A stretch of DNA of 64,000 bases from positions 744,001-808,000 of the forward strand of contig OZ237739.1 in assembly GCA_965178125.1 (NCBI GenBank). Direction: 5' to 3'. The stretch is from Bilabrum cf. latius (Eukaryota). Numbering within the stretch: the first letter of the stretch is position 1; the number at the start of each line of letters is the position of its first letter. Positions 18,498 to 56,512 of this stretch are shown piece by piece. The translations under genes and the position numbers were made by a program. Under the pieces are notes generated by a model. The model saw only the letters and a list, made by a program, of their open reading frames with translations, was not told the DNA's origin and did not search any database.

Positions 18498-18665
18498 TGA
18501 TTCGGTTGCACGGCCGTGTTATATCGCGGCGAACGGACACACGTTCGGTCGCACGCGGAAGGTTCGCTAGAGCCCTCTGGTCGCAGCGGGACAGATGGCT
18601 CCCTAACACCCACCATCCATTTTCCACTTATCGATTTATTAACCATCAATGTATTGTAGGTAACC

Positions 18666-25378: not shown

Positions 25379-25643
25379 ATCAGATGAGCGGAGACGCGGG
25401 GTGGCAGCGTCCGAACGAAAGACTAGGATTGATTTTTGGGCCCTTGCGTGGAGATCTATTTCTGCAACGAACCTCTCCGAACGTTCGTATCGTCTGAAAT
25501 GACCAAAACTACAGCACTCGATTTCTGCATCCATGCACCGGACAATTAGCAGTCCGCGCATAATTCGCACATTAAAAAGATTAAGATCCACCAGATCTGT
25601 CCAGGATGTATCTGTAAATCAAGTTTTAGCGCAATTGCAAGGC

Positions 25644-32000: not shown

Positions 32001-35000
32001 CAGTGACCCTGTGCGACCCGCTGCTCTGCTTGAAGACGTGGGCCCAGATGTTTCCCTGCCCCTGTTAGGCGTCTTGAGAGAGCCACCATCGTCAAGCACG
32101 TCACCGGCAGTCGCCCCGGCAACCTTGCCACCGCTCGACATGGATTTGCTGCTCTTATTGAGCTGTCGGATGCGTTCGGTGTGGGCCTGCAGCTGCTTGA
32201 GCCTCTATCTTCGCCTGAGGATCGCCTGCCTTCGCTCCTCTAAAGTTCTAGACTGAATCGAGTTGACGGTCGTGAACAAGTAAGGGAAGAACTCGTTTAC
32301 TGGCAGCATTACCAGGGTACTGATGAGAGCAACGAGCACGCGACCTGACACCCTCGACGGAGTCGTACCGAAGAACACGGCGTTCACCGCCATGGAAGCA
32401 AGGCACGTTGCACACAGTACGCCGATCCGCTGGGAGACAGTCATCCTCAGCTACTCGTCAAGGGGCGGAGAGAAGACGGAACCCCAACCGTGGTGCCTCC
32501 TCAGTCTATCGAGCCAGGTGAGCCAAATGTGCTGCACCACCAAGAAGGCCGTGCCAGATTTGCGAGCTTCTCGCAGTCGCTGCACATCAGGGTCTACCTC
32601 ACCAGTGTCGGCCTTGTGAAGCTTGTCAAGCCCGCGACCCTGGCGCAGCTCGCCGTAGCGCACAAACTGGGCCCGCGCGAGGTCCTTCCGTTCCTCCTCG
32701 GTAGCTCGGTACAGGCAGAACGACACGCCTGCTGCCATTACGAACGCGCCAAAAAGCACGCAGAGCACGATCAGCACGAAGAAATTGCGAGGGTCCAGGT
32801 AGTTCTGCAGCAGGCCAGCGTTGCCGATGGGGTCGATCGCGTTGATCTGGGGCAGGTCCTCTTCTACCTGCGAGCTGAAGTCCGTGAGATGCAGCGTCGC
32901 GCAGATGGCCATTCGTCTCGTGTTGCCGTTTGGCAGCTCGTCAGTCTCGAAGCGAAGCAAGACCATGCCATCGGTGAAGTCGCGCCCCGTTTCTTCGTCA
33001 AAGTACCTGCACTCGTACATGTCCTCGGTCGCTGCATCGCTCACGGGCAGCCGAAGCAGCAGCGGGCATCGCAGCTCCTGGACATCGATCGTCTCACCGG
33101 AACCAGTACCACCTGCAGAAGCGGGCGCACCGGCAATGTCCATCGATACGACACCGCCACCGCGCTCAGGGGCCCCTCCCTGGCCGCTCTCTTGCAGCAC
33201 GTCCGACCACAGGTATGGGTTGGAGGACCACGCAATGCCTCTTAAGTCCACGGAGGCATCTCCATCGCCAGTCACCGAATTGTTATTCAGCAGTCCAGAC
33301 ACGCCACCCAGCGGCAAAACCATTTCTGCGCCGCTGCCAAGCTGCAGGACCTGGGCCTCCTGAATGGAAATACGCACGCTAGTTGCCTGCAGGGCATCTG
33401 ACTGCAGGGTTTGTGGCTCTTCCCCCTGCGCCACGGCCAAAGTGGAGCTCCTGCTCAGGCTCTCCGCACTGGCCCTCAGGCGCAGGGTCTAAGACAGTGC
33501 TCTAGTCTCATTGATGAGAGCCTCCGGGGTCCCGGAGCCCTGGTCAGCGGCGGCCTGCAGGAGTCGGTGAGCTGCGATCTTCAATTGGCCCGCATGGCTC
33601 GAGGGCGATTCATCGCCCACTTGAATCTCGCGGAAGAGATCAAGGCGTCGACTGGGTGACGCAGGGCTGTGCATCAGGTGGGTGGAATCCGCCGCCTCTA
33701 GCGCGAGATCCATGGGGATGAGGTCAGACAGGATCGAGACGTCGAGCGAGCCGGTCGACTCGGCAAGCATCCGGTGCGAATCGGATGAGCTTGATATAGA
33801 GGCGCTTCCAGTCAAGCGGTCAGTATACTGCGCAGAGTTCTCAACCCGAAGCCAACTGAGTTGTCGACTAAAGCTAGGCAACTTGATCGTACCAAGGTAG
33901 GGCAGCTCGAGGGATCGATCGGTATCAGTACCCCTTGCAGTCTAGTGCCCGATCATGGCATCAGGTAGCACGCCCCGCAGCTCGCTCGCTGCATCATGCT
34001 GTCCCATGGCGCTAATTACAGCGGCATGGCCCTTTCCAAGCCACCATAGCGGGTTCCAACTGGCGTCTTCGGGCAAGGTTGCGTCCTCAACTGACGCAAG
34101 GTAGGCAGCGTGGCCTAGATTGGCGCTATGAGGCTCAGACGCACTCTGAAACGCATCACGGGCCAATTGGTACTCCTCAGCTACCAGTCGTCGCGCATCG
34201 CTAGCTCCAGCTGCGTGCAGCAGTGTTGCGGCAGCTTCCAACCGTCTGACTGCCTGCGACCGGTTCTACCCAGATGCAGCTGCATACCTGTCCTGGTTGG
34301 AAGAGAACAGCACGCCGAGAACGGATAGAATCTGCTCTGCTGTTCCAAGCGACACGCCCGAGGGTGCCTGGCCCTCCTGACCATCGTCCCCGCTGTCCTG
34401 CGATTCGACTTGAGTGAGGGCAGCATTGGACAGCCGCTCTGCCATCGCGAGAGCGAGGTCCTGCCCGGACTCATCGAGGCTGTCTGTGTTTCCGGACAGC
34501 CCAGTGAGTGTGGCAGCATGCATGGAGATGTCCTCTTCAGTACCCTCGAGATCATTGGAAGCCTGGAACTGCCTCTGGAGCAGACGCTGCCTTTGCGCCT
34601 GCAGCGCGTTCACGGCTGACTGCCTCCTGGCACATGCAGCCCCTGCCCACGGGTTGTTGGGCTGGTTTCCAGACTCACAGCTGCACACTGCCTGGCAGCC
34701 GGTGGTGTCACCAGCGCTACACATCGGCGGGGTACGAATACAGATTCCGTTGCCGCTGCACTCATCAGCAGGAACGAGCATTTCGCGGCCAGTAACGAGG
34801 TCAGTTTGCCGCACCCGACTGGGCGAGCTGCCGGGGCACGCAAGCACAATAGGCAGCTCTTCCACCGTACCGCCAGCGTCGTCCTCTTCGGTCTCCACCT
34901 CGCTGACACAGTTGCCCTGGAAGCAGCGCTCACCATCAGAGCATGTCACACCATCGCACGGGTCACCCGGCACGATATCAAGCACGTCCGTAATCGCGCT

Positions 35001-38000
35001 GATGTCGTTAAGGATGCGCGAAACATCACCCTCCAGCTCTGCCTCATCCAAGCCAGCCTCTGTCGACTCAACGAGGTTTAGGATGTCTTCTGTAGACTGC
35101 ACCGTTGGCGGGTCCACCTGTAGCACAACTGCCGCGCCAGTCTCGTCGAAGTAAGCGGTTGTTGTGGCACCCAAACGATCGCTCACCTTCACTGCGAGTG
35201 TCAGCTGATTGGAACTGCCGACACCTCGAGGGAGCCGGACACCGCTCACAGAGTCCTGAGCAGCAAATTGATTGCTCATTGGGATGAACTCGGGCGCCTC
35301 CTCGCCGGCCTGTAGTTGCCCGTCTGCAGCGCGCTGCACCGCGCTACCTTCAGCCAAGTAGTACCCGAACAGGTACCTCAAGGGCAAGTCTTCTTCATCA
35401 TCGGTCCACTGCACCGCCTGCAAACTGAACTGCGTCTCCAGCATGGTGCCAGCCCGTGGCTGAGCCGCAAGATAACCGCTGAAAGGGGGCTGATTCACGA
35501 GGACCTCGGTGGTGGCGGTGGAGGAGCCGCCCGTCACAGTGTCAGTCACAGTGAATACGAATATGTACGCAGAGCCCGGCTCAAGCACGCCTGGCCTAAG
35601 TGTGACCAGCAGGCGATTCGAGGGTGTGGCGAACACACGTGAGGCAATCTGCTGGTTGGTCGTGTCGATGCGCCATGAGTAGCTCAGGTCACCTGGAGAC
35701 GCGGGCAGACCAGACCCAAGCGTAACCGTAGCACGGAGGCTCGACCTCACGTTGGATAAGATCTTGTCAGGGTTGCCCACGATGCCGGCAGACGTGACGA
35801 TGGGCGGGCTGCCCGACACAACCGAGAGATCAATGCTCGCTGTTGAGCTACGCACTGCGAGGGGCAGCAGCGCACCAATGCTAGAGTTGGTGCCCCTGCT
35901 GTAGGTGACACTGATGCGGTACCTCCCCTGCCCCAAGTTGCGAGGGCCCAAGGTAGGGAGACCCGTCCCTGGGCTCGACTGGGGTCCATGGGCTGGGTCT
36001 GTCGGTACGTTGAAGTTGATCTGCCTGCCGGTTGTGTCGGTGCAGGCTGGGAACAGGGACCCGCTGCCTTGGTCCACGACCACGCCGCCCACTACGGCGA
36101 ACTGGCCCGCCAGAATAGCTGCCTCCTCCTCTACGGTGTCGGGCAGCTGCACGCAGCTCCAGGAGAAGGACTGGGTGCCCACTTCGGAGAGCGTGAAGCC
36201 ATCGCGATCTGAGGAACCAGTCGCGTCGAATCGAAGCGTCTGGCTCTGACCGATCTCCCGTGTGGCGCCGCCTGCTATCTCGGCACGGACGCCCTGTCCG
36301 ACCACCAGCAACTCCATTGTGGCCGTGTTCCGCACGCTGGGCCTCGAAGGCAAGAATGCCTCGGCCTGTAGGACGTATCTACCGCCCGACACTACCAGGC
36401 GAGGAGGCAGCACCAGCGTGCGGCCACCCCTCGTGAAATACTGGGCCAAATCGGGCAGAGCGGGCACGCTGAGGGCAGCCGAGGCTACTTGCGGCCATGG
36501 CGATGCGCTCACCGCTGTCCACCTGTACGACAGAGCTTCCCTCGGGCCAGTACCACCGCCGCCATCACACGTCGGTAACTATGCATCTACAGAGAGTCGC
36601 ACGGATTGCGAGGCTCGGACCTGCAAGCTCCTGGTTCCCTGGATGGAGATGAGCGGAATAGGCTGGTCCTCGACGACGACAGTGTGGGTCGCCACGCCGG
36701 GCTCAACGGACAAAAAGGACGAGGCCCTCATCTCGAAGGTGATCGTGGAACCGGCTGGCAGCAGGGTGGCATTGGCGATGCTGACGATTCCCGGCCTGAG
36801 GCCAAGGACACTGCGGCTGGTCTGGCTGGCAACCAGTGCCGCCTGCAGCCTCTCCTCCGCCGCATCGCGCTGTGCTGCAGTCGCACCAGCGATAGCGCCG
36901 ATCGTCACGCTCCAACTGAAGGCGAGGGGCCGCCCACCGCCACCAGTCGTTGAAGACCCGTCCAGCTGGATCCCGTCGCAGAACGAAATGCGCTCCGGGC
37001 CCGAGATGGATGCCCGCGGCGGACTCGCCGGCACAACGGGGCCTGCGATGAGGGAGCAGGACCTCGAAGCGCTGTTGACGGAGCCTTGCACTGCACGGAT
37101 GGCACCATTGCCGCGCAAGACAAGTCCGTGCGTGGTGTTGGCACAGGGAGCCAGCGCGTCAAAGAGCAGCAGCGGCGTGGCAGTGGCTCCGATCCCCAGC
37201 CGAACGGCCATCCTGGTGGCCGACTAGAAAGTGCAAGACGAAGCCGCGGGCCCCGTCTGAGATGCTCCGAGGATCTGCCAGTTCTCGAACACGCGAGAGC
37301 ATGGGCCAGCCCCCGGACCATCAGCTAGAAGCTGTGATGTTTTCGACGTGAACTCGACGTCAAGGCTGGCTCCAGAGGACGAGAAGCGCACGGACCTCAC
37401 CGCAGGGATGGGCAGCCGACCTTGCAGCACCACAGATCCACTTGAGGAGAAAATTGACGCAGCAGATGCCTTAATCACGCCCCTGCGGATCTAAATAGTG
37501 CTGCCTGCAGCCGGCTCCATGAACGTGCCCCCGTCCTGCCCGACAGCAATCCTAAGCCTGTCACTGGCGGGCCAATAGCACACAGCCGAGGATCCACCGA
37601 CGCTGAGAAGCGTAGCAGGATCCAGCACCTGCATACTGGAGCAAGCCTGGGAGCCTGCAGCGCCCATGCTTCGGCCAGCCATGGTGGTGGCTCTGCTAAA
37701 GACCACCTCGATCTCCCGTGCGGTCTCGACTAGGAACGCGCTGGCCAGCACCGGTGCTGGGGTGGTGTCAATAGCAGCCTCCACATCGTTGTCCAGGATC
37801 TCAACGGACACTTCCAGGAGGGATGCCTCGATACCCCTCTGTTCGCCGTCTACGAGTTGCACGGGTGATGAGTAGTCCGGGTCGGTGGAGGACAGCCCAA
37901 GCGTGATAGTTGCTGATTGGGCCGACTCGATGGTCTCGTCGTCGACCGCAGTGATGGTGAAAACCACAGGGGTCTGCCAATTCTATGCAGTCCTCACTGC

Positions 38001-41000
38001 AGCTGCAGGCGTAAGCGCGATCTGACCGTTAGAGGCAGCAGCGGTGACTGTCACAGAGCCCACGGGGGCCGATTTGAATGACATTGACACGGTGCCCGAC
38101 GACGGGGCCCCGCCCACGCCACCCTCACCCAGTAGCAGATAGGACTGATCCACCGAGATACCCGGCACGTCGTCCTCGGTCACGCGGGCTGTCACAGCGG
38201 GCATCTCAGCAGACCCACCCACCAGGCCGGCGTAGGCGGGATCCGACGGCGCCGAAGCAACCGTCACGTTGACCTGCACAGAGCGGAGCTGCTCGGGAGA
38301 AGCGCCCCTGAACACTGCCTGGTCGTTCGAAGGAACAAACGAGACCGACTGCGGGGTCTGCCAGTTTGCAGTCGTGAAAGACAGCGAGGAGGGGGCGACG
38401 ACCACCGCACCTCCGAAGGGCGCGTCCCCTGCGATTGCCAGACCGCTGGCAGCCAAGCCCAGCGTGACCGTCCCGGACGGCGTGGTTCCAAGCCGAACAA
38501 AGAACTGACCTGACTCGCCCTCCTCCACCTGGAACCCGTCAGGTTGCACCACCCGCACGGAAGCAGCGTCGTCGTCGTGCACGACGACAGTGATCGACAT
38601 GCTCACGTTGGCGTACTCATCGGGTGAGCCCTCACCGGCGTTCACGCTGAGCGTCTGCGTGTACGTGTCACCGCGATCGATGAAATCGGGGGGAGCGAAC
38701 ACGTCAAGTCTGACAGGAAAGTCCCAGCCGGCGCGAGTGAACTCTGCTGCGCCCGTAGCCGTGTTGTCAGAACCTCCGAAAGATAGAGTGCCTCGACTAG
38801 GGCTGATGATCTGCACGAGCCCGTTCGAGTGTGACGAGTGCTATAGATCCGCACTGACCGCCTGGAATGGCGTTGATGCCAGCGTAACCTCGATGGAGCG
38901 CCTCTCGCCCTCCCGCATCTCGACCACGAGCCCCTCGCGCCCAGCCACCGACCAGGTGGGGGTCAGCAAGGCGTCAGGGCCAACTGCAATAGGGTTCGAG
39001 GTGCCGAGCAGCGGGAGGCCGGCTGATGGCGCCTGGTCGATTCGGCGGAGGATAAAGCCCGGTGCATCATCATCAATGACCTGGCCGCTGATCTAAGCGC
39101 TCTCTCCACCAAACAGGCCGCTGTACCTGCTGTCGCTAGCAGATTGCGACGTGTGCCCAACGGTGACGGACACGTCTCCCTCGGCAAACGTGTTCTGCAC
39201 TGCTTCCAGCCGAATTACCACTGGAACCTTCCAGTTGGCTCGCGTGAACTGCACCGTCTCGGGCACGGCCTCAATCTGGGCGGATCCGATCGGACCAACG
39301 GGCGTATTGGTGGTGTGACTAGGTCGGACGGTCACCGTGGAATCCCTAGCGGGCGGAGAGAGGAGCCGCACGGAGTACTCGTGGGTCGAGCTGGTCACTG
39401 CCGCCGTGAGCAGTCGTGCACCTCCACCAGAGGCCGAGGCCCCGCCCTCAAGCACGCTGAAGCTGCTGGCGTCGACAACTCCGATGCCCACAGGGTCATA
39501 CACGAGCACGTCTACCGATACGTCTTCCGTTGCCGCATATACAGCGTCGTCGGAATTGGCCGAAGACACGATCAGCCTGAAGCCTTCTTCAGTCTCAGTC
39601 AAGCCGTCTCGGCCAGCAAACAAATAGATGAACTGCGGCGTGTTCCACGTGTCAGCATCGAAAACAATCGAGGTGTTGCCAAATGCGCCAACGTCGCTCA
39701 GGTTGGCCGAAGAGGGGCTGCTCGTCACACCGTAATCAACACCAAGCCCACCCGATCCACCGACACCCTCGTCCACAGAATCGGACTGTACCGTAATTAT
39801 GACGGTGCTGCTGGGTCTGGTTCCAAGAGACACCGTGAACAGGGCCCCTGCCGCATCACCTTCAACAATCTCCACGGCATCATGCTCATGCTGCACGCGG
39901 ATGCCTGCTTCATCGTTGTCCGTAATTCCGAGCACCACCCGCGGTACAAATCGCCCGTCGTACCGAGGGTCCTCCGGGGCACTCACGCTGTGCAGCACGG
40001 CGGTGGAAGCCGAAACGCCCTCATCCACGTCGTCGTCCAGAACAGTCACGGTGATCTCGCGCCACTCGTTAAAATTGGAGCTCGTGAAATCCATGGGCTC
40101 GGCAGGCGATACAGAAATCAGGGCTGTAGTGGCCCCAGAGAACGGACGGGGCGACGTGGTCTCCTCGGCGGCCTGGACCGTGACTGACCCAGCAGTCGGG
40201 GGTGCCGTCAGCCTGATGCGATAGGAGAAGCCGGACGAGACCGGCGGGATGCCTGTCGGAGACGCCCCCTCCGTAAGGTTTGTGACGATGGCCCGACCAT
40301 CCCCGAGCTCATAGGATCCTGGCGTGACCGCCTCCAGCTCGATGCCGACTTCATCGGTCACAGTGATGGGCAGCTCCACCGCCTCGAGTTCGTTGTAGAA
40401 CGGATCGGCGCTTGAGGGCTTCAGCTCGATCGTAGACTCCATAGCAGGCTCGTCTGGCGCGCCGGCCCCGTCACGGATGGCAAGCACTGACATCTGCTGC
40501 GGCGTATCCCAGTTTGATTGATCAATCACCACGAATGCAGGCGATTGAAGAACAACCTGAGTTCCGTTGAATGGGCTGGATGCACTGACTGTGACGGGGT
40601 ACAGCGGGCTCGTGCTCGCTCGGACGGAGAATTGAGCGGCAGGTGCACCCTCGGCTACCTGCAGCTGAGTCGGTGACACCACGATAGCCACCAATGTGCT
40701 GTACACTGCCTGGATGCCGTGTGCGAACGGGAAATCGTAGTTGCTCAAGCCGCCACCGTACGTGTCTGCCGCGCTCAACTTGAGCAAAAAGTCCACTTGC
40801 TCACCGAAATGCGTGTCACCATCCTCGATGTCCACATCAAAGCTCAGCTGGTGGACAAACCCCTCAGACGGCTCGGATAGGTCGGCCCCAACGGCCACCA
40901 TAGCCCCGGAGGAGAGCTCTGGCAGAGGAGCCATGCCTTCAACCACCGAGACGTTGGCCCGCTGGAATGCGACCGAGATGGATATGTTTCCGTGCGGAGG

Positions 41001-44000
41001 AGGAATCGCGCTGAGCCTGGCAAAGTAGCTCACAGGGCCAGCCGACTCGAGGATTTGGCGCGTCTCGTCGCTGTCGCTGAGAACAACCTCTACACCGTCG
41101 TTTACGTAGACCAGCTGCATACTGGCATTGGTGGTGTCCACCAGCTCCAGTGCCATGGTGTCGGGGACCGTGTCATTGCCATCAGCACGATTCAGGCCTG
41201 CAAGCGTGTCCGATTCGCTCGCCACACTGATCACATACTGCTCGTCGCCCTGCAGCACAAAATCGAGCCCTTCAAAATTAAGGTTCAGCGTCACGTTCGG
41301 GTATGCGTGATCCACTGAGACGGCGTGGTCAGTAAGCTTGGCAAGCTCAAGGCCAGGCTCCGGGAATCCCTCGGTGACGTGCTCAATTGCGTAAGACGGG
41401 TGGCTGCCGGTCGCAGAGGCGTCGAATGAGAGCTCTGCCTTTCCAAAGAGAGGCAGCTTCGTGGGGAACAGGACCACCTGCGCGGATCCTTCGTTCTCTC
41501 GCAGGGACAAAGAGCTCGCTGCCCACCGGTACTCAGACACGTCGTTGTCTCCCAGCTGCACGGTGGCACTCGCCTATTCCACGCCGTGGTAGTTTGAGGC
41601 AGATGACTCCTAGTCTATCGTTAGCAAAAGGTAGGCCTCCAGCGTGTCAGGCTCGACGAAGCTGTCGTCCAGAGCAGACACTATAATAGTCTGCGTAACG
41701 TTCCAGTTCGAATGGTCGAACGTGAGCGAGGCAGGCTCGAATACCAGCTATTGGTACTCAAGCTCTGACAGGTCCGTCACGAGCAAACCGGCTTCGTTCA
41801 CACTCTAGCTCGTGAATACGACCACCTCGCTGGTGCCCGTGTTGTCTGGAACATCTGGAATGGCAGCAAGCCGCACATGTACGCTGGCAGTCGCCCCTCC
41901 TTCAGCCGCCTGGAAGGTCTGCGGGTTCATCACAACGAGGTCGGGCGCCTCGTACACGAAGAAGGTCACTTGCGTGACGGCCGCATCCGTGCCCGTTATG
42001 GTATCCACGGGCAGGAATGTCGATCCGGTGATGGTCACGGTGAGTGCAAATGTGGCCTTATGCTCGAATGCCTCGCTGTCCGCAGGGGCCGTGGCCTCGA
42101 ACAGAAGCGGGCCAACCAGGTTCTAAACGGTTGAAGACGAGCCTGATTCGCCCCCTAGCACTGCCAAAGACCTTTCCATATTGTCCTTTAGAAGGACCAC
42201 GATGTCATCGAGTTCGGCATGGGAACCGGACACAACGGACAATGTCACCTCGACGGTATACGACTCCTCTTCAGTCTCCGCAGCAGACATCTCGGCGATG
42301 AACACCTATCCAGTGATTGCTTCCTCTTCACCTTCGATGAGGGCGCCCTGGGCCGGACTTGCATCCAGGTACAGGCCCTCATCAGCGTCCACAAACAGGA
42401 GGCCAACCGATTGTCTGCTCGAGTTCCAACCGACCAATCCCTCTTGCGTGAAGGTAATCGCTGACAGCGTGATGGTGCCGTTTCCGGTTCGTGGGAGCGA
42501 AGCAGCCGCCTGCACGTCGACGTCAAAGCTGTCTCCAGTTGTAGGGTTCTCCACGACAACAAACTTGGCATCTCCGTCGGAAAATGAGGACCATAGCGCA
42601 AGGTCAGCGTTGGACTACGCCCAGGAAGGCAATTCTGAATAGTATGACTCATTCCAACCGATCGGCAGCAGCTCCAAACCGGGGATGACAGTGCCATCCA
42701 GGTGGAACACACCAGACGCAGCGAATACCAACACAAGTGTTTCGCTCGAAGTTCCATTGACTGTAACCGTCATACCAGAAGACGCGTTGTACCCCTCGAT
42801 CACGCTTGGGGTCCCTGTGGCTTGCACCTCCACCGAGCCGAGATCGTCGTCCCTCACTAGAACGTCCGCGAAGTCCGACACAACAGCCTCCATGCGCGAG
42901 AACCCATCATCCACAGCTGACGCTTCGATCATTGCGACGAGAGTAGTTGCATTGGGCATAGCTTCGTCGCCATGAGTCATCTCTGGACTCTCAGCGAAGA
43001 ACCCAAGCACAGTGGACACCAGGTCGATTTCAATCACGTCGTCCTGCAAAGGAGAGAGACGAACGTCTACTTCCTGGTCCCAATTCGACTCATTGAACTC
43101 AATCACGGCTATGTATCCGTTCAGAACAGGCTCAAACTGGGCAGGGTAGGAATCCCCGAGACCAGGCTCGCTCGTGCGCTCGGCAAGGCTCGAAGTACCC
43201 GACCCTGCAGCTTCGGATCGGCCTAGCGAATTCAACCGATATGTGGTTAACTCGGCCACAATGACACGTGCAGAGCCGTTGGCATAGATAAAAGAATCGG
43301 GGGGATTGTCCAGCCGAACTTTTGCCGCGATCGCAGGGCTATCTCCTTCGGACAGCTCGGTCGGGCGATCACCGACTGCCAGACGCACCTGCGGTCGTGT
43401 GCGGTTGACCTCAATGAACTGAATGGTAGCATTCGCGGGCTCCTCTAACCATCCATTTGTACCCGGTGCTCCGAGTACCCAGGACATGGCCTGCACCTCG
43501 AACGACCTCTCGTAGTCGTCATCAATTTCTACGTTGACGCGTGTTAGCAGCGACTCTGCGGCAGCCAGCGATGTCCGGTAGGCGTACAGGACATCACCAG
43601 ACAGCAGACCCGAGTCGTTCAGGACCGTCACACGATCCTGCGCCCATGCAGGCAGCGACATGAAACCCACAGGGGACCAGTCGATCGCCGCGAGCGACAC
43701 GCTCGGAAGACCAAATGGCTCTGGCCATACGGCGTGAGCTGACACAACCGCTACCAGCTCCTCGCTGGACTCTCCATTCAGCACGGTGGCGAAAGACGAG
43801 GTGGCCGTATCGTTCAGAGATATCTTGGAGGGCACTCCTGGGCCCACTACCTGCACGCTGCCCGTGTCATCGTCCAAGATGCTCACAGTGCCAATAAATA
43901 GCAGCTCCAGCCTGGGCATCTCACCGGTCTGCACCGTCACGTTCTCGAACACCTTTGTAGTGACTCGCACCGTGAAATTACGGACAGCCTGGTTGATGGT

Positions 44001-47000
44001 GTTGTCATCAGTGAAGCTCAGAGCAGCAGAGGCTGAGTCCAGGTGCGTCTGGTTGCTCAAACTGGTGTCGCTGCTTGTCGCCAGCGAAGATGCGACGTAC
44101 GTCAGCCCGTTCTCGTCCAGCGTCTCCACACTGACCTATATTCCACCGTTCACGAATCGGATCATGTCCGCAACCACCAACCCCAGCCCGTTGGCAAGGC
44201 TGCTCTCCTTGATGCGGAGGACAGCCCCACCGCTGACCTAGTGCTGGTCCATGTCGGGCATATCAATGGGGATGGACACCAGCTGCACCGCGTCGGCAGG
44301 AAAAGCCCCTCCCAGCGACACTTCGACGTACGGCACATCGTCGTCGAGCGTCCCCACGATGGTTCCACCCCACACAGTGCTGTTCAAGACTGGGTTAGGT
44401 CCTGCCTCGGCCGGCATACTCGCGTTGAGGCTGAGCTCGCTGAACACGATAGAGAGCTCGCTTGCAACCAGGTCCTCCGAGCTCAGCAGCGGAATGGCTT
44501 GCTCTTGCGCAGCTGCCACCAACGACGCGGTGAACTGGCCCAGCCTCACCAGCGGCTCTTCCCCGCTGAGCCCCTCGACTCTGACGGTCACTTCCACTGG
44601 GAACATAGTCTCACCTCCTTGCAGGGCGACCACCAACCACGCCAGCTCGTTCTCGCGCAGAACAGCACAGCTTCCAGTGATCCCGAGGCCAATTGCTTCG
44701 CTGGATGGAGAAACCGTGTCGTTGCCGCAAACTGCCACGCTCCGCGGGACATTGTACAGGTCAAGACCGCTGCTGTACAGGGGGTTCGTTAGGGTGAAGG
44801 GAATCTCGAGCCCCGCAACTCCGCGGTTGTCGCCACCCTCCACCCACAGCTGAATAAACGGATGCTCGTTGTCCACTACAATAATGTCCATCGCAGCATC
44901 CGCCGCTGCCTCGATCCTGGTCTCGTTCATCGCGTCGGCGTCTCCGCGCAGAATGGCCCTGCCCGTGGCGGCGTCGGGCATGGACGAGTAGCCGTTCGTC
45001 ATGTCTGGAGACTCCACGACAAAGCCCAGCACCACGGAGAGCTGTTCGATCTCGATGATGGAGTCGTCCAGCACGCTGACGACCACGTCCTGGTCCTGCT
45101 CCCAGTTGGCCTCGTTGAACTCGAGCACGGCCACGTAGCCGTCGGCACTCGTCTCAAGCTGGAAGGGATAGGCGCTCGAGATGGCTGGCTCGATGGTCCG
45201 GTCCGCGATACTAGCATTGTTGGACTGGTTTGCCAGGCTACGCCCCAAACTGCTAAGCTCGTACTGCGCCAGTTCAGCCACGAATACCCTCACCGTGCCG
45301 TTGCCGTACATGGGCGCATCAGGGATGCTGGACAGCCGCACCGTGCCCACCACCACGTCCCTGTCGCCCTCGGTAGCAGCAACGCTCAAGTTTTGGGTGG
45401 CAATGACGCCTACCTCGCTCACTGAGGACTTCTCAATGATGTTCACGGTCACATTCTGCAGCAGGCCGTCGTACTTGGGATCGGAGGAGTTCGTCCGCAG
45501 CACAACCGTGGCTGTGCGCGCGTGCCCGTCGTGCTGCGTGATAGACTCGGTTAGGCGCACGATGAACTGGAAGCTCGTGTCCTGATCCAGCATGGCGTCA
45601 AGGCCGGGCGGCAGCGTCAGGTTGAGCGACTGCGACGCGCCCCCGAGAGCCAGGTCAGAGGCGTTGTGCAGAAAAACCTCCACCCCGTCGATGTCCGCCT
45701 GGTCAAGCGCAACAGTCGCGTGCACGCCCACTGCGGCGAAAGGGGACGTCAGCGTGCCCACCCTCAGGATGGCTGTGCTCCCCTCCTACAGCTCGATCTG
45801 CGCGGTAGGGAAGTGCCCCATGGAGCTGTTGGTGCTGTTGGCCTGCACCGCCGACAGGGCCAGGCCAGGAACGTCGTCGTCCAGCACCGCCACGGTGATG
45901 GTGCCGTTCCCCAGCTCGTACGAGGACGTATAGGCAAATGTGCTGTTCAGGACCAGCTGGATGCTGCCCGTCCTGAGACCGTCCGCCACGGCGTTCTGCC
46001 GCCCCCGCACCTGGATCACACGGCTGGTCGTGCCTCCAGGGGCAAAGAACAGGGTGCTGGGGGTGACGTCAAAGGCAGGGGGGATGCCCTACCCGCCCAC
46101 GTACGGATCAAAACGGTCCGCGGGGGGCACCATGTCGTACACGGGGTTGGTGTTGTTGGTCTTGAGCTGCACCATGACCGTGTCGGTGACCGTCCCAGTG
46201 ACGTAGATCTCGATGTGCTCAGAGCTGGAGGAGCCCTCCTGCAGCACCACGTGGCTCGAATTGTCCGTGGTAAAGGCGTCACTGCCATATGCCCGCGCCG
46301 AAATAGTCACGGTCTCCACCACGATCGTCACCGCCACAGTCGCCTCGAGCCCGTCGAAAGCGCCCTGCGTGGAGGTGGACTCAACCGCGACCAGCACCTC
46401 CACGTTGCCGGTGCCCTCCAGCTCAGCCTGCTGAATAAAGTTAAAGTTTTCGTTGATCTGCAGGGAGAAGGTGGCGCCAGCGACCGCAAGCTCCGACACG
46501 CCCGTGACCGACGGCAGCGAACCGTTCGCCAGGACGAATGGGGGCTCGGTTTGGTCTGAGCCAGCAGCTGCTTCGCTGGTGATGCTCAGTGTCACGTTGG
46601 TACTTGGAGCTGCACCAAGGAATGCAGACACATCAATCTGTCCGCTGAAGCTGGCCCCAGTGGTGCTCAAAGACGAGGATAGAGCTATCGTTGCCGAATC
46701 GTCTTCCTCCAAGTAGAATCGGAACCGGGACTCCAATCCGTCAAAAGTCCCATTCGAGGAACCATTTCCACTAACCACTAGCTCAAGCAGATGAGAATGC
46801 TCGCTTGGGACGAGATCATCTGGCATCGTTGCTGAGAACTCCACAAATCCCGCGTTTGCGCCAAGGTCGCCGTCTACGTTCGACCAGCTTCCGTTGGCCA
46901 CTGCATTACTTGCCTCAGCATCTGTGGTAAATGCCTCAATGAAGCGTACGGATGGCACGGCAACGAATGAGCCGAGGTCAGCATCGCTGCCGGCTGCTAT

Positions 47001-47312
47001 TACGTTCAGCGACAGGGCCACCTCTATGTCATCAACCGCGGCCGGCTCGCTCGCCCACACGCGGATGGTAACCAATTCTCCCTCTGATGATGCATCTGGA
47101 ATGGTAATATTAGATTCGGATTCAAGAGGGAGCTCTATTGTACCGATGGCGGCGTGAAAGCGCGGCACTGAAGAGCTGCTGAGCCGTCGACCCCAGGAAC
47201 GAAGCTGTTCTACATCTTCAAGTCCGACGTCCGCCTCCTCGTACGAAGAGGCCTGTGATAACTCTACATATACTCCAAGTACCACGGCCGAAATTGCAAG
47301 AACCGCCCACAT
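29049..47312 (-). CDS. Giant polycystin-1/REJ-like receptor (~6,090 aa): signal peptide, Calx-beta-like repeats, REJ, EGF-like, GPS, multi-TM, IQ motif
   Basis: 20 ORF-track fragments in a single frame, 25 in-frame TAG, no TAA/TGA until 29051-29049. Signal MWAVLAISAVVLGV; repeats FT.ANW..PQ.V.V.A.DD; REJ VNQPPFSG..WTDDEEDLPLRYLFGY; GPS CRYFDEE..CATLHLTDFS; IQ-like VQSAYRRFHA. Confidence 0.88.
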
Positions 47313-47615
47313 TCTGCCCGAGAACCGCGGTATAGCAATAACGGAAGGGTTCACGGCACGCGCCACGTTTCAAGGCCAGGCTGCGTGTCGATACTTGGAA
47401 CTACCAAGAATGTATCGTCTAGGTCTTGTGCGAACCTTTTGCTTTAGTAACACCTAGGCTTTATCGCTACTTGTGCGCTGGAAATGCGAAAATGCGTCCG
47501 GAGCGTTTTGGGTACCCCTTCTGTGAACAGATGGTCGCAACATGTGCAAGCACAAAACCACGGCCTGAACTGGCTGCAAACGAATAAATTGGAGAATGCT
47601 GCAATGACAAATGTA

Positions 47616-49324
47616 TCATGTCATCGTAAAGTGCGACTGGAGCTGCTTTCTAAGCTCGAGAGAGTCTGCGTGCTCTGGGTACGCCTCCAGCGCCCTTCCA
47701 ACCATCTCGAACGCCTCCTGAAACTGCCCTACTTTGTACGCCAGCAGTGCGCCGTTGAATTGAGCCTCGTACAGGTGTGGCGCAAGACGAGCTGCGGATC
47801 GAAACGAAGCCCGGGCCGCCTCAACGTTCCCCCGGCGCATCTCCAGCACGCCGAGATTCACCATGGCCTCCGCGTGCTGGGGGTCTGCCGCGAGCGCAAC
47901 CTTGAACGCCTGGTAAGCGACTCCCATATCGCCAATCCCGATGCCTATGTGGCCCACGTTGTACCAGACGTCGGCCGCCGCGTCGTCCTCGGCCATGGCG
48001 AGGGCCCGCTCGAGGCACGTGAGAGCCATGTCGAACTGGGAGGCGTAGAAGCAGCACAGGCCCAGGTTGGTCCACAGCTCGGCGGAGTGCACGCCCATCT
48101 GGAGCAGCCGCCTATAGTACCGCAGCGCGATCTCCGGCCGGTCCGAGTAGAAGAAGTTGCTCGCCAGCGATGCGATTGCTTCGATGTGGCCGGCGTCCCT
48201 CGAGAGCACGCGCCGGTACAAGGCGGCGCTGGCCTGCACCTCCCCCAGCATCTCATGGACCCTGGCCATGCCCTGCAGCAGGTAGGCCTCGTCGGGGAAC
48301 CGCTGCAGCCCCTTCGAGTACCACTGCAGAGCAGTGGCCGGCTGGTCCAGCTTCATGTAGCACTTGCATAGCTCGAGGTACCCGTCCACCGTGGGCTGCG
48401 TCTGCAGGGAGCTCTTGAACTGCCGCTCGGCCTCCCGCAGCAAGCCCAGCTGGTAGTACGCCTTGCCCAGCCGTGACTTCCACCACCAATCCGCAAAGCC
48501 AACCTTGACTGTGGCTGCTGCCGCCAGCTCCACTGCCTTCCTCGGGTTATGGTCGTGATACAGAATGTACTCGCAAAGGGCCTTGGCCACTGCTGCTCGC
48601 CCGGCGTACCGCTTCATGTCCAATCGTTCGACGTCGATGAACGGACCGCCTTCTTGGGACATCATAGACGCAGTGCCCAGCCGCACCGCCCGCCCGAGGC
48701 TGGTCATGGGCCGGGAGCTGCCCGCCCTTGAGCTCTTGAAGGCGCTGCTGGCGCCAGTCTGCATCCCGGTGATCGGCCGGGATGACGTCCCCGGGCGTAA
48801 GAATCCCGACACTGGTCGACCAGTGGCCGTTACAGGACGCATGGCGGGATTGTTTGCGGAGGAAGCGCTCCCAGTGATCGGTCGATGCAATGATGTTCCA
48901 GCTCTGCGCGCAAGGACGAAGTATCATCAATGTACAATGAAAAGGTCCATGAAGATGCGAGCCGCACTTTCTGATACCGGAGTCGCTATGACAACCTACT
49001 TGCTCACCTCGGCAGCTGGGCAAGGGCGTTGTCGTCCATTAACAGTTCAGCTACGCCCTCCTCCTCCATCTCTGTATCGTCAATCCACATCTTTTCTGTC
49101 AGTGCCCTGGTTTTCAGCATCCAGACAGCCCGATCGAGAGAATTCTATTTTAACAACTTAGTGCATAGATCGATGCATGCATCGTACTGCTAGCAGTCGA
49201 ATTTAAACTGGGCATAGAAGAAAGGGTCCACGCCAGCGGGGATCGCAGCCTCATCAGTGGCACCCGCCTGGCTTTCACCAGCTCCGCTAGCAGCAGCGGC
49301 TATTGGCTTTAACGGAACTGCCAT
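47616..49324 (-). CDS. BBS8: BBSome subunit TTC8/BBS8, 2 exons
   Basis: Exon 1 DPFFYA..CIDLCT..AVWMLKTRALT..EEEGVAELLMDDNALAQLPR with TAG at 49190 and 49145; intron 49007-48904; RPMTSLGRAVRLGTASM, DWWWKSRLGKAYY, TPR array; TGA end. Confidence 0.96.
48904..49007 (-). other. Spliceosomal intron (104 nt)
   Basis: GTGAGC...GCGCAG; splicing gives QLPRAGTSL, matching BBS8 PRPGTSL. Confidence 0.92.
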
Positions 49325-49449
49325 ACGTTGAATCAAAAGCCCTCTGACGAATTCGCTGTTAGTGGGACGCGCGTCGCCATCCGTTTGTGCTATGCGAGCG
49401 ATAACCGGAACTGCATATTAGGGTCCAGCCGGTCCATAAGTGCCTAAGA

Positions 49450-50359: not shown

Positions 50360-52857
50360 TCAAGGACCCTCTACTGCCAGAGGCACGGGCCTAGCCGTGA
50401 CGCCCTCTACATCGGTGCTTGCAGACCTGTGCCGCACCCCGCCAGAGAGACTTGAAAGCTCCACCGAGGCAGCATAGGCCACAGCACCGGCTGCGTCCCC
50501 AGGTTGTACCACATCAACGGGATGGCCCCTCCCGTTCTTTGCACCTGCCTTGCCTTCCTCCCCCCCTCCCTCCCCTTCTCTGTCCTACATGCCCAGCTGG
50601 ACCTGTGCCCCCTCCCTCTCCTGCTCCTGCTACTCCTCCTTGCGCATGGCAGCGGCATTCACGATGGCAGCTTCTTTCTGTCTCGTGTTCTCGCCCTTCT
50701 CTGCCGCATCGTTTATGAGGCTCCAGCCACCCAGCATCAGGGCCAACATGCCGAGAGCAATCCAGCTGAAGCTCCCAAGAAATGCCAGCTTGCCGCCGCC
50801 CATCTGGTAGAGCCACCCTCCCATGAGCGCCCCGATCGCGCCCCCGAGCCCCCAGTGTGTTCCTGTAAGCAAGCCCTGTGCCGTGGCTTGCAATTCTCGG
50901 GGAGCCGCCGCGTTTGCGAATGCGGTGCACGCAGCCCAGCCGGCGCCGTAGGTCACCCCATGCAGCAGCTCGGCAGGCAGCACCCACCAAGCATCGCCAG
51001 CAGCTGGCACGACGTACGAGTACCACAGAATCCTGAGAGTGTACGCGACCAACGCCGCCATCAGCATGGCAGAGTGGCCAAAGCGGCGCAAGAAACCCCC
51101 CGAGTAGTGAAACACGGGTACCTCGGCCACGCACGTCACCAGCAGGCACATTCCGAAGAGGAACCGAGACGAGCCCGGCTGCGTCTCGAGGTACACGAAC
51201 AGGAACCCGCCGATGGTGCCAAAGCATGAGCCCATGCATAGCGCAACAAGAAGGAAAACCTGCATGGCGCGGTTTCCCACCAGCATCTGCACCTCGTCCC
51301 AGGTTGACCTCGGCTTGGCGGCCAGTGATGAAGCGCCGGCTGCGGCGCCGTGCGGGCCAGACACAGGCCGGCCCGACCGAGCCGCACCTTCCGCGCCTTC
51401 CAAATGTCCCGCAATTGGAAGCAGAGACTACTGCTCCACCTCGCTTGGCTACCCTGCACCATGTCGCTCGCTGTCGCCGAGCCCCCCGTGCACAGGAGCA
51501 TTGGCCCCCGCCCCACCGAGCCCCGAGCCCTCCTGCTTGTAGGCCTAGTCCGAAGAAGCCCTTCCTCGGGAGAGGTGGGCAAACTTGGGCGCTGTTTTCG
51601 CAGCACGCCCATCCTCAATCTCCACTACTTCAGCCTTTGATTCCAAGCCCATGGCTGCGTCGTCCTCACGACCCCGACCATGTGTAGCCGCCCCGCCTGC
51701 CTCGCTTCCCACTACTTCCTCGTCGCCCTCCGCCCCACTCACAGACCCTCCCATGCCAATGAAACCAAGCCCCCCTTGGGTCGTGCCATCACTCACGCTG
51801 CCAGATACGCTATTCCTGTCCCTGTTCCCTTCGCCGCCGCCCAGAGCAGCGTCAACATCCCTGGTGACCGCCCTCATCCTCTCCTATGCGAGGCTCTTCG
51901 AATGGGAGCTGGCCACCAGACCGATGGCTTCGTCCTCCCAGGCCTCGTCCTGAATGGCACCTGAGATGTGTCTTTCATCTGAACCCTCGTCACGATCATG
52001 ATCTCGCGTTTTCTGCTGGATGCGGGGCAGCTCGGCAGATCCACCCGTGCCGGCGCCGCGCCCTGCCACAGCTTCCTCCCCTTGGTCTTGGGACCGGTCC
52101 ACAGGCTCGTCCAATCCGCAGTCTCGAATCACAACAGCTGCAACCAGGGCAGACAGCGCTTGAAATACCGCGAACATCATGAAGCTCACGGCGAAAGACT
52201 TGGTTGCGTCCTGCACAGCTCCAGCGACTGGCGACATGATCCCCCAGCCTACCGCCCCATAGAGCCTTTGCTGCCCGTAGTCTTCGGCAGCATGCAGCTT
52301 GATCCGCGAGTCCTTTTTGGCTGGAGTTGATTGAGATGCAGACAGCGCCTTGGAACGATTCACGACTGCCATCACGGCGGCGTCCAATTGGGATGGGACC
52401 GGGGAGGCCACAAATTCGGCGATAAGGACAGCAGCTAGAAGCGGCCAAAATGTGTGCAGGCTCAGCAAAGAGAATCGAAGGATTGTACCAGCAACCAGCA
52501 GTGATAGAAATACGCACACGCGGCTCCCAGCTTTGTCAGCCACCATGCCCCACAGTGGTGAGGCAACAATGCTAGTGACGTTCCCGATAGCTCTCAAAGT
52601 TCCGATTTGGACCGGATCCAGGCCGTTGTCTTCGAATAGAAGAACTACAAATGGCATGAAGCAGGCCCAGCCGCTATAAATCAGGCCGTACGAAGCCTTG
52701 CATCTCCAAAGCAATCCCTGGAGAACGCTATCTTGGGATTCGACTGGAGTAATCATTATCTGCAAGCTGGCCCACGCATCGAATTGCAATGTATTAGAGC
52801 TCGAAACGGCAAATACCTTACCCCAAGGAAGTAATTGGGCATTTCATGTTCCTGCAT
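50360..52857 (-). CDS. Major facilitator superfamily transporter (MFSD6-like)
   Basis: Two 6-TM halves (ASPLWGMVADK, YGQQRLYGAVGWG, AEVPVF, ELLHGVTYG, LQATAQGLL); TAG at 51884, 51545, 51449, 51428, 50630, 50585; TGA 50362-50360; probable intron 52821-52760 (GTAAGG..CTAAT..TTGCAG). Confidence 0.88.
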
Positions 52858-55720: not shown

Positions 55721-56512
55721 CTCCGGCCGTATGTTGGAGGTGTTTTTATTTCGCTCGACGGTGCGTGGCGCCGCGCGTGAGGTTCCGCAGTCACCCAACT
55801 GCAACTTGGAGTTTAGATACGCCAAGTTCAAATAGACTCGCCTTTGAGGCCTAGTGTGCAGTTTGTTGGATTGATATTACGTACTTGTTCCTTCCACTAG
55901 GGTCGAAACCCCTCAAATGAAGGCTAGTACGTCTTCCTTGCATATTTCCAAGACACATGATAGTTTCTCGTTTGAATTCACATAATAGAACTACAATATG
56001 CCAGTATTATTCGCTGATAACTACGCGTGAGGGAGTATTTTCGTTGCACTCTAACACACACCAACAGCGCCGCAATCAGTTCTCTGAACCACTGAAGCCT
56101 TCGTGCAATTCAGACATTGCTGAGGGCTTGCACCTTCGCGCGCTGGACGCAGTGCTTGGGCAAGATCAAGAAGTTTGTTTGGTGTAATAGAAATGATTGC
56201 GTTGGGGAATGAGCGGAATAGGGGCGGTGGCAACCGGTAGACACAGGTAGGGCAGGAACGTGCGTGCACCCAATGGATTGCGTGATCTCACAAGAGTAAT
56301 AATTGCACCCCTTAAAGAAATTAGAGCAGTGCCGGATTTAAATTTGCAAGCAGAAAAGGCCTATATGTAGTTTGAAGCCATATCGTATTTTGCAGGCCGC
56401 AGCAACGGTAGGATCCGAGATAGCCCCAAAGATCCAGGTAGGACCGGTCGCAACCTCACCAGTCCTTGAGATCCGCCCACTCGTTCACAGCCACGGTATC
56501 AAGTCACAAACA

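What the first reader, a model, noticed from the sequence alone, without database searches (positions are those of the whole stretch)
42615..43890. Internal duplication aligns TAG with CAG, pointing to UAG = Gln
Seen: two paralogous modules of the giant receptor align: DDDTGSVQV..GVPSKI..NGESSEELV..LAAIDWSPVGFMSLPAWA-Q (CAG at 43640-43638) and DDDLGSVEV..GTPSVI..NGTSSETLV..LLPIGWNESYYSELPSWA-* (TAG at 42617-42615). Other support: EYQ*LVFEP matches the Q in sister repeats NGQIALTP, SAQIEAVP, GTQVVLQSP; aminopeptidase I*RALESV resembles QQALE; MFS tail EE*QEQERE. Caveat: the BBS8 and FAD-enzyme sites align with K/R as I recall the homologues, so Lys is not formally excluded.
Basis: partly seen in the sequence, partly recalled or inferred. 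Interest (0 to 1): 0.8.

Follow-up and report, generated by a model that had tools for sequence, protein, structure and literature searches.

The report
TAG read as glutamine, eukaryote
In this GC-rich eukaryotic genome piece the stop codon TAG is an ordinary codon that almost certainly means glutamine, while TGA ends the genes, a rare but already known type of genetic code in an organism I could not identify.

Summary
Two modules of a 6106-codon gene align (E 7e-9), and TAG 42615-42617 stands opposite CAG 43638-43640. That single column is weak evidence, because other paralogue columns opposite TAG hold S, A, V, L, D or G.

The reading UAG = Gln holds on better evidence. Ten long reading frames (satellite frame excluded) hold 68 in-frame TAG and 0 TAA, and all end in TGA. 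BBS8 exon 1 adds 2 more TAG.

Public protein fragments from a close relative (86-98% identical, itself broken by in-frame stops) cover 15 of the 25 TAG of the giant gene:
- 10 read Gln, including the finding's own TAG.
- 2 read Glu and 1 reads Ser.
- 2 coincide with a stop in the relative.

Nine stops private to the relative face window CAG (5), GAG (2), TTG (1) and TCA (1). Ordinary Glu, Lys, Leu and Ser codons of the same gene almost never face Gln. Gln beats the next residue by about 10^11 in likelihood.

Distant homologues are less clear: the three usable columns are polar, Arg is commonest and Gln is present.

The tRNA and the release factor could not be examined, because no genome is held. 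This is a new member of a known kind (table-15-type code). The host lineage is unidentified.

The parts
29049..47369 (-). Giant gene, 6106 codons, with 25 in-frame TAG, ending in TGA. It has repeated extracellular modules, a REJ domain and a C-terminal membrane region.
   Evidence: Pfam REJ E 5.7e-36; distant homologues carry Calx-beta and REJ
42615..42617 (-). The TAG of the finding (codon 1585 of the giant gene).
   Evidence: faces Q1244 of the paralogous module and Q in relative fragment P0410
43638..43640 (-). CAG (Gln 1244) in the paralogous module.
43584..43886 (-). Module copy A (aa 1162-1262; DDDTGSVQV...PAWAQ).
   Evidence: E 7e-9 against copy B
42561..42863 (-). Module copy B (aa 1503-1603; DDDLGSVEV...PSWA-TAG).
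2..8011 (+). IPT/TIG-repeat membrane protein, 5' end outside the window. 10 in-frame TAG, ends in TGA.
15568..18327 (-). Low-complexity, coiled-coil-like ORF with 4 TAG, ends in TGA. No Pfam family.
18501..21248 (+). ORF with a weak Methyltransf_22 match and 5 TAG, ends in TGA.
22133..25618 (-). M1 aminopeptidase with 4 TAG, ends in TGA. The last TAG lies 25 codons before the stop, inside the ERAP1_C domain, and the homologues continue past it.
25503..28136 (+). Malonyl-CoA decarboxylase with 4 TAG (all outside the parts that align with solved structures), ends in TGA.
47616..48923 (-). BBS8/TTC8 exon 2 (TPR repeats), no TAG, ends in TGA.
49004..49417 (-). Frame holding BBS8/TTC8 exon 1, with 2 TAG.
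   Evidence: E 1e-18 to PDB 6xt9_H and 6vbu_8
50360..52843 (-). MFS_1_like transporter with 6 TAG, ends in TGA.
54152..55876 (-). FAD-dependent oxidoreductase (PF12831) with 2 TAG inside the domain, ends in TGA.
57462..63998 (-). Peroxidase/DOMON/cytochrome-b5 multidomain protein, 5' end outside the window. 8 TAG, ends in TGA.

Best explanation
The window is nuclear DNA of a GC-rich (about 60%), gene-dense, intron-poor eukaryote that builds a cilium or flagellum. In it UAG is a sense codon translated as glutamine. It is a minor Gln codon, about 10% of Gln codons. UGA ends every gene seen, and UAA never occurs in frame.

Shown here:
- TAG is read through in real, selected genes.
- TAG exchanges with CAG the way a synonymous codon would between close relatives.
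- TAA is not a Gln codon.

Inferred, not shown:
- Decoding is by a dedicated tRNA-Gln with anticodon CUA, one mutation away from the CUG isoacceptor. That anticodon reads UAG but not UAA.
- The release factor eRF1 has lost recognition of UAG.
- A dedicated, efficient decoder is needed, because one gene alone has 25 TAG.
For: 1. TAG is sense.
- With TAG open, the window gives frames of 6106, 2669 (cut) and 2178 (cut) codons and others.
- Ten frames totalling 16,671 codons hold 68 TAG, 0 TAA and 0 internal TGA. At whole-window trinucleotide frequencies, 115, 43 and 225 would be expected. BBS8 exon 1 adds 2 more TAG.
- Pfam domains run across TAG, for example FAD_oxidored 1-416 of 416 and ERAP1_C 2-317 of 318.

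2. The genes are under selection.
- A relative at about 8.6% DNA difference (1678 listed differences over 20 kb, run X10) differs at only 6.7% of residues (270 of 4010).
- The 12 listed indels fall in groups that look length-compensating or multiples of three.

3. The residue.
- Relative fragments are 86-98% identical to the window. The three Logan contigs they come from are 98-99.5% alike among themselves; one further fragment (P0257) comes from an ENA record.
- They read Q at 10 window TAG, E at 2 and S at 1. Two fragments end exactly at a window TAG.
- The relative's 9 private stops face window CAG x5, GAG x2, TTG x1 and TCA x1.
- Two relative contigs that are 99.5% identical in protein differ by stop versus Q at aa 4269.
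- log10 likelihood of the 13 residues: Q -6.1, H -17.7, K -19.7, E -21.4.
- If TAG were Glu, P(9 or more Gln among 14 sites) is about 9e-11, allowing 3.5-fold for transitions. This was computed on the earlier tally of 9 Gln.

4. TAA is not Gln. With CAA/CAG = 0.24, about 17 TAA would be expected beside 68 TAG; none is seen, P about 3e-7. No frame lengthens when TAA is also opened.

5. Distant homologues exclude hydrophobic and aromatic residues. L is 1 of 118 in both FAD columns, and Y and W are 0.
Against: - The three usable columns of distant homologues favour Arg over Gln about 35-fold. FAD columns: R 49 against Q 13, and R 63 against Q 6, each of 118. M1 column: A13 E8 K5 R3 Q3.
- The two BBS8 TAG face R and K in the only two homologues compared, both mammals.
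- Three of 13 read-through TAG are not Gln in the relative (E, E, S). That is more than the 6 of 161 ordinary Gln codons that changed. One of them (aa 3129) sits in an NW motif where the paralogues and the relative all have S or A.
That its in-frame stops are TAG is inferred from the window codons facing them.
- Fragments were found more easily where a TAG had been replaced, so the sample is biased toward changed sites.
- All relative evidence comes from one gene.
- No tRNA lies in the window, and no genome is held.
Confidence: 0.9

Rival explanations
1. UAG encodes glutamate (as UAR does in peritrich ciliates and Blastocrithidia), and the TAG/CAG exchanges are Glu/Gln replacements.
For: - Two of 13 window TAG face E in the relative, and 2 of 9 relative stops face window GAG.
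- At aa 2220 one relative contig has a stop where another has E.
- The closest M1 homologue has E at the one alignable TAG column.
Against: - Ordinary window Glu codons face Gln in only 3 of 245 cases, whereas TAG faces Gln in 10 of 13.
- log10 likelihood is -21.4 against -6.1 for Gln.
- P(9 or more Gln of 14) is about 9e-11.
- E is 1 of 118 and 9 of 118 in the FAD columns.
Confidence: 0.02
2. UAG encodes a basic residue (Arg or Lys), as the distant-homologue columns suggest.
For: - R is the commonest residue in both FAD columns (49 and 63 of 118).
- R and K face the two BBS8 TAG in two mammalian chains.
- The deep-column likelihood ranks R first.
Against: - None of the 13 read-through TAG is R or K in the relative, and no relative stop faces a window AAG or an Arg codon.
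- K scores -19.7, and R is below the eight best residues, that is under -28.
- Arg codons are two steps from TAG.
- Columns dominated by R on protein surfaces commonly accept Q. Q is second in FAD column 1.
Confidence: 0.02
3. UAG has no dedicated tRNA. It is read by near-cognate tRNA-Gln(CUG) because eRF1 no longer recognises it, so it is mostly Gln but possibly mixed or leaky.
For: - No tRNA gene is in the window.
- Non-Gln partners (E, S, L) are rather frequent at TAG sites.
- TAG is used less than its trinucleotide frequency predicts, 68 against 115, which fits a disfavoured codon.
Against: - One gene has 25 TAG, so even 90% read-through per site would leave about 7% full-length product (an inference).
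- The absence of a tRNA in 64 kb says nothing about the genome.
Confidence: 0.05
4. The TAG are not translated: pseudogenes, assembly errors, tiny in-frame introns or RNA editing.
For: No RNA data could be used. No listed holder is on record as RNA.
Against: - There are 70 TAG against 0 TAA and 0 TGA in frame.
- An 18.3 kb frame is kept open in two species with mostly silent differences.
- The same stretch is identical in a contig of another run (X8, 7021 bases, 0 differences).
- No W faces TAG, which argues against A-to-I editing to UGG.
Confidence: 0.01

Closest known systems
UAG-only reassignment to glutamine in nuclear genomes (NCBI table 15 type): the fornicate Iotanema spirale, the ciliates Protocruzia tuzeti, Hartmannula sinica and Trochilia petrani. 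Read as passages of PMC5304391 and PMC11687900.
   Same: UAG is sense and means Gln. UAA is not used as a Gln codon. A CUA-anticodon tRNA-Gln is the expected decoder.
   Different: - In those taxa UAA is the dominant stop (passages). Here all 12 gene ends seen are TGA and no TAA stop was seen.
- This genome is about 60% GC, gene-dense and mostly intron-free.
- Its genes (haem peroxidase, cytochrome b5, malonyl-CoA decarboxylase) suggest an aerobe, unlike Iotanema (my inference).
- The 64-kb locus with genes on both strands does not look like a ciliate gene-sized chromosome (my inference).
UAR (UAA and UAG) = Gln codes (table 6 type): many ciliates, Hexamita, Streblomastix, ulvophyte algae, and the aphelid Amoeboaphelidium protococcarum. 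Passages of PMC11687900, PMC5304391 and PMC6299283.
   Same: Gln is the residue and TGA is the stop. Amoeboaphelidium is an algal parasite, and relatives of this window occur in runs labelled algae or protist metagenome.
   Different: - TAA is absent from 16,671 in-frame codons, where about 17 would be expected.
- Amoeboaphelidium genomes are about 40% GC (Table 1 of PMC10608142) against 60% here.
- No close NCBI protein hit was found.
Other UAG-only reassignments: Leu in the rhizarian exLh, Ser in the green alga Scotinosphaera, and Leu, Glu or Lys in some ciliates. Passages of PMC11687900 and PMC5304391; abstract of PMC10553269 seen in listings.
   Same: UAG is uncoupled from UAA.
   Different: The residue differs. 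Leu, Ser, Glu and Lys are each far less likely here.
TAG = Gln recoded phages (crAss-like, Lak). Listing of PMC9523058, and earlier scan notes.
   Same: The same codon has the same meaning.
   Different: This is a cellular eukaryotic genome, with BBS8, REJ receptors and an intron, not a phage.

Membership tests
Table-15-type nuclear code (UAG = Gln; UAA and UGA not sense) | In-frame UAG inside conserved, selected protein-coding genes | tested here: met
   70 TAG in 11 genes. Pfam domains span them. The relative keeps the 18-kb frame with mostly silent differences.
Table-15-type nuclear code (UAG = Gln; UAA and UGA not sense) | UAG positions correspond to Gln in close relatives | tested here: met
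   10 Q, 2 E and 1 S of 13 read-through sites. 5 of 9 relative stops face CAG. Likelihood.
Table-15-type nuclear code (UAG = Gln; UAA and UGA not sense) | UAG positions correspond to conserved Gln in distant homologues | tested here: inconclusive
   Only 3 alignable columns, all variable and polar. R is commonest and Q is present (13, 6 and 3 sequences). The two BBS8 sites face R and K in two mammals.
Table-15-type nuclear code (UAG = Gln; UAA and UGA not sense) | UAA is not a sense codon | tested here: met
   0 TAA in 16,671 in-frame codons. No frame extends when TAA is opened.
Table-15-type nuclear code (UAG = Gln; UAA and UGA not sense) | UAA still functions as a stop | tested here: inconclusive
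   All 12 gene ends seen are TGA. Given the base composition (TGA:TAA about 5:1 in the window), 0 of 12 is not significant.
Table-15-type nuclear code (UAG = Gln; UAA and UGA not sense) | tRNA-Gln with anticodon CUA | not testable with these tools
   No tRNA in the window, no Rfam match, and no genome held.
Table-15-type nuclear code (UAG = Gln; UAA and UGA not sense) | eRF1 altered in the stop-recognition motifs (GTS, NIKS, YxCxxxF) | not testable with these tools
   eRF1 is not in the window, and no genome is held.
Table-6-type code (UAA and UAG = Gln) | In-frame UAA used as Gln | tested here: not met
   0 observed against about 17 expected, P about 3e-7.
UAG = Leu (rhizarian exLh type) | UAG at Leu or hydrophobic columns | tested here: not met
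   L is 1 of 118 in both FAD columns. 0 of 13 sites read L in the relative, and 1 of 9 relative stops faces TTG.
UAG = Ser (Scotinosphaera type) | UAG at Ser columns | tested here: not met
   1 of 13 sites in the relative. Ordinary Ser codons face Gln in 0 of 422 cases, so 10 Gln cannot be explained.

The most novel reading that the evidence does not exclude
This is an independent, so far undescribed origin of the UAG-only-to-glutamine code in a GC-rich, intron-poor, flagellated, aerobic eukaryote lineage that has no close relative among named proteins. TGA is the working stop, TAA is practically unused, and TAG is a fast-turning-over minor Gln codon: at least 13 of the 25 TAG of one gene are not TAG in a relative only about 9% diverged. 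At least two members of the lineage share the code, and they turn up in sequencing runs labelled with several other organisms and with algal or protist metagenomes.
Probability: 0.45. Interest if true: 0.7.

Novelty: new member of a known kind. Interest (0 to 1): 0.55.

Why it matters
Nuclear codes in which UAG and UAA have different meanings are rare. The papers I read list one fornicate, one rhizarian, one green algal genus and a few ciliates. A further case in a GC-rich genome that ends its genes with TGA would bear on why the two codons usually change together, and on how GC pressure shapes stop-codon capture.

There is also a practical consequence. Any standard-code annotation of this organism chops its genes at every TAG. 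The public ORF fragments of its relative show exactly that, so its proteome, orthologue sets and completeness scores will be wrong unless table 15 is used.

Tried and rejected
- Internal paralogues as the main test: rejected. The columns facing TAG are variable.
- M1 aminopeptidase homologues (best 37% identity): 3 of 4 TAG lie in lineage-specific insertions and the fourth is in a variable column.
- Malonyl-CoA decarboxylase against the PDB: no TAG lies in an aligned part. FAD enzyme against the PDB: no match.
- Whole genome: not held, so no search for tRNA or eRF1 was possible. ARAGORN and Rfam found nothing in the window.
- Relative's DNA: read laying showed a relative across the whole gene, but listed only 40 of 1761 differences, none at a TAG of the giant gene, and its cap is one call. 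JGI metagenome contigs hold no relative of the REJ part. I did not use the second metagenome scan or the genome-contig scan.
- RNA: no RNA holder was listed, so transcription and editing were not tested.
- The frame 9970-12447 with 3 TAG was dropped from all counts. It lies in a 130-bp satellite that is open in all three frames.
- Organism identity:
  - Amoeboaphelidium was considered and rejected on GC content and on UAA use.
  - A quick, unfinished-search tree of M1 peptidases places the window with unnamed environmental sequences and a long-branched green alga, which does not name a lineage.
  - The Atlas search only confirmed the TTC8 family.
- Earlier scan notes: nothing for this genome or sequence. 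The word search returned only recoded phages.
- Literature: searches found no description of a GC-rich non-ciliate, non-fornicate eukaryote with UAG-only = Gln. Subscription papers (for example Karpov 2013 and the aphelid genome paper) were not readable, and I saw no supplements.
Full report
**What is in the window**

The window is about 60% GC throughout. Under the standard stops it gives only moderate reading frames. With TAG open it resolves into long frames on both strands:
- 29049-47369(-), 6106 codons with 25 TAG
- 2-8011(+), 2669 codons, cut by the window edge, with 10 TAG
- 57462-63998(-), 2178 codons, cut by the window edge, with 8 TAG
- several of 575-1162 codons

Opening TAA as well changes none of these frames. 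Opening TGA fuses everything into nonsense.

Pfam finds eukaryote-type proteins that run across the TAG:
- IPT/TIG repeats
- an M1 aminopeptidase with its three domains
- malonyl-CoA decarboxylase
- an MFS_1_like transporter
- an FAD_oxidored enzyme matched over the whole profile
- a haem-peroxidase/DOMON/cytochrome-b5 protein
- a REJ domain in the giant protein
- a TPR protein

The Atlas search and the PDB identify the TPR protein as BBS8/TTC8. BBS8 is split by one short intron, and its first exon lies in the frame 49004-49417(-), which holds two more TAG.

The apparent frame 9970-12447 lies in a 130-bp satellite of about 36 copies (10065-14742) that is open in all three frames. I removed it from all counts.

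In the ten remaining long frames (16,671 codons) there are 68 TAG, 0 TAA and 0 internal TGA. At whole-window trinucleotide frequencies, 115, 43 and 225 would be expected. All ten frames end in TGA, and so does a further small gene at 49405-50235. TAG is therefore a sense codon, while TAA and TGA are not.

**The observation itself**

Self-comparison of the giant protein, with TAG written as X, aligns residues 1162-1262 with 1503-1603 at 34-39% identity, E 7e-9. The TAG at 42615-42617 (codon 1585) faces Gln 1244, the CAG at 43638-43640.

The duplication is real, but this is one column. Other TAG that fall in paralogous alignments face S, V, L, S, Q, D, S, A, S, G, A, S, A, S and A. By itself the paralogue argument does not fix the residue. 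Taken naively, it leans toward Ser or Ala because of one motif column.

**Distant homologues**

The best homologues of the aminopeptidase are only 37% identical. Three of its four TAG lie in insertions that 27 to 34 of the 34 aligned homologues lack.

The FAD enzyme has homologues up to 53% identical. Across 118 of them the two TAG columns read:
- column 1: R49 Q13 A12 N8 V8 K7 T7 D4 H3 S3 G2 E1 L1
- column 2: R63 T9 E9 A8 Q6 V5 K5 S4 H3 M2 and four singletons

The two BBS8 TAG face R and K in the two mammalian chains of the PDB. The decarboxylase TAG lie outside the aligned parts.

These columns exclude Leu, Tyr and Trp and point to a polar residue. Taken alone they favour Arg over Gln about 35-fold.

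**A close relative decides it**

A search of public runs found the stretch complete in several runs. Small shares of its words occurred in others. Laying four of them showed that three runs hold a relative of the whole giant gene. Run X10 has 1678 differences over 20 kb, transitions dominate, and the few indels fall in groups that look frame-preserving. The table of differences was cut, however, and showed no TAG site of the giant gene.

The protein collection holds ORF fragments called under the standard code on three Logan contigs and one ENA record of that relative. They are 86-98% identical to the window's protein and collinear with it. They are separated by single in-frame stops, so the relative uses the same code. 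The three contigs are 98-99.5% identical to one another in protein.

Over a non-redundant 4010 aligned residues, 270 (6.7%) differ. Set against about 8.6% DNA difference, most DNA differences must be silent, so the gene is under purifying selection in both organisms.

At window TAG sites:
- The relative reads Gln at codons 528, 1078, 1585, 1688, 1855, 1874, 4368, 4476, 4973 and 5159.
- It reads Glu at 1044 and 5055, and Ser at 3129.
- Two fragments end exactly at window TAG 1749 and 3293.
- Codon 1585 is the TAG of the finding, read as Q in fragment P0410.

In the other direction, the relative's nine private stops face window CAG five times, GAG twice, TTG once and TCA once. Eight of these nine codons are one step from TAG.

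Two relative contigs that are 99.5% identical differ by stop versus Gln at codon 4269. Two others differ by stop versus Glu at codon 2220.

Ordinary codons in the same alignments give the baseline:
- window Gln stays Gln in 155 of 161 cases
- window Glu faces Gln in 3 of 245
- Lys in 1 of 28
- Leu in 1 of 375
- Ser in 0 of 422
- Tyr in 0 of 70
- Trp in 0 of 35
- Arg in 1 of 193

The log10 likelihood of the 13 observed residues is -6.1 for Gln, -17.7 for His, -19.7 for Lys and -21.4 for Glu.

On the earlier tally of 9 Gln, and allowing a 3.5-fold higher rate for a transition, the chance of seeing 9 or more Gln among 14 sites if TAG were Glu is about 9e-11.

The proportion of "silent" partners (10 of 13) is about what one expects among changed codons in a gene where roughly three quarters of DNA differences are silent. 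That last comparison is my inference.

**Weak points**

- The sample is biased. Fragments are long, and so easier to find, where a TAG has been replaced, and conserved TAG show only as fragment ends.
- All relative evidence comes from one gene.
- That the relative's stops are TAG is inferred.
- Three of 13 partners are not Gln, a somewhat higher share than for ordinary Gln codons. With the two Glu alone, P is about 0.03-0.09, depending on whether 14 or 25 sites are counted.
- TAG sites probably sit at weakly constrained positions. TAG is used less than base composition predicts and seems to turn over fast: at least 13 of the 25 TAG of this gene are not TAG in the relative.
- These features fit a minor, mildly disfavoured synonymous codon in a GC-rich genome. 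They could also fit decoding that is not perfectly clean.

**UAA and UGA**

With CAA/CAG at 0.24, about 17 in-frame TAA would accompany 68 TAG if TAA were also Gln. None is seen (P about 3e-7). The code is thus of the UAG-only type. Whether TAA still terminates cannot be told from 12 gene ends, all TGA, in a window where TGA outnumbers TAA five to one.

**Mechanism**

As argued for Iotanema and the rhizarian exLh (passages of PMC5304391), reading UAG but not UAA requires a CUA anticodon. The simplest origin is a mutated copy of tRNA-Gln(CUG), combined with an eRF1 that has lost affinity for UAG. Neither could be examined here. There is no tRNA or Rfam match in the window and no genome is held. 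This part is inference.

**Comparison with what is known, and novelty**

UAG-only = Gln is known from Iotanema spirale, Protocruzia tuzeti, Hartmannula sinica and Trochilia petrani, and it is NCBI table 15 (passages of PMC11687900 and PMC5304391). UAG-only to Leu or Ser, and UAR to Gln, are known elsewhere.

The window does not fit those hosts:
- It is GC-rich and gene-dense.
- It has aerobic-type enzymes.
- It ends its genes in TGA, not UAA.

The algal parasite Amoeboaphelidium (UAR = Gln) was considered, because relatives of the window appear in runs labelled algae or protist metagenome. Its genomes, however, are about 40% GC, and its proteins are in NCBI, whereas no named protein is close to the window's.

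A quick tree of M1 peptidases groups the window only with unnamed environmental sequences. I could not place the organism, so I cannot say whether its code is already in print. My six literature searches found no such description.

**Verdict**

It is a new member of a known kind. Interest would rise if the lineage proves to be a new, independent origin of this code.

Noticed in passing
window 10065-14742: A tandem satellite with a 130-bp unit, about 36 copies at 91-93% match. It is open in all three plus-strand frames, so it mimics long ORFs (for example 9970-12447, 12969-14939).
   Followed up: partly
window 29049-47369 compared with relative fragments P0242-P0257, P0275, P0326, P0348, P0408-P0410: TAG codons turn over fast. 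At least 13 of the 25 window TAG are not TAG in a relative only about 9% diverged in DNA, and the relative has 9 private in-frame stops. Near-identical relative contigs differ at stops (aa 2220 and 4269). This fits a disfavoured minor codon under GC pressure, but the sample is biased.
   Followed up: partly
window 37983-37985 (codon 3129 of the giant gene): This TAG sits just before a conserved N-W motif, where four paralogous repeats have S or A and the relative has S. It is the one site that looks like Ser rather than Gln.
   Followed up: partly
window about 48924-49006: BBS8/TTC8 is split. Exon 1 ends near 49007 (...ALAQLPR) and the protein continues in another frame from about 48900. At least some genes in this otherwise intron-poor locus therefore have short introns.
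   Followed up: partly
window 54152-55876: The best named homologues of the FAD-dependent oxidoreductase are bacterial (Hydrogenedentes, Bryobacterales, Planctomycetota; 44-48% identity), alongside a few unnamed eukaryotic transcriptome proteins. The gene carries two TAG and a signal-peptide-like start, so it is resident in this genome. It may be an old transfer from bacteria.
   Followed up: no
window 37400-47369: The identical 10-kb stretch is held by runs filed under four different coded organism names in four studies. The organism may live with, or contaminate, cultures of other organisms.
   Followed up: no
window 25503-25618: The stop-to-stop frames of the aminopeptidase (minus strand) and the decarboxylase (plus strand) overlap head to head. 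The two genes are therefore divergent, with a very short shared upstream region.
   Followed up: no
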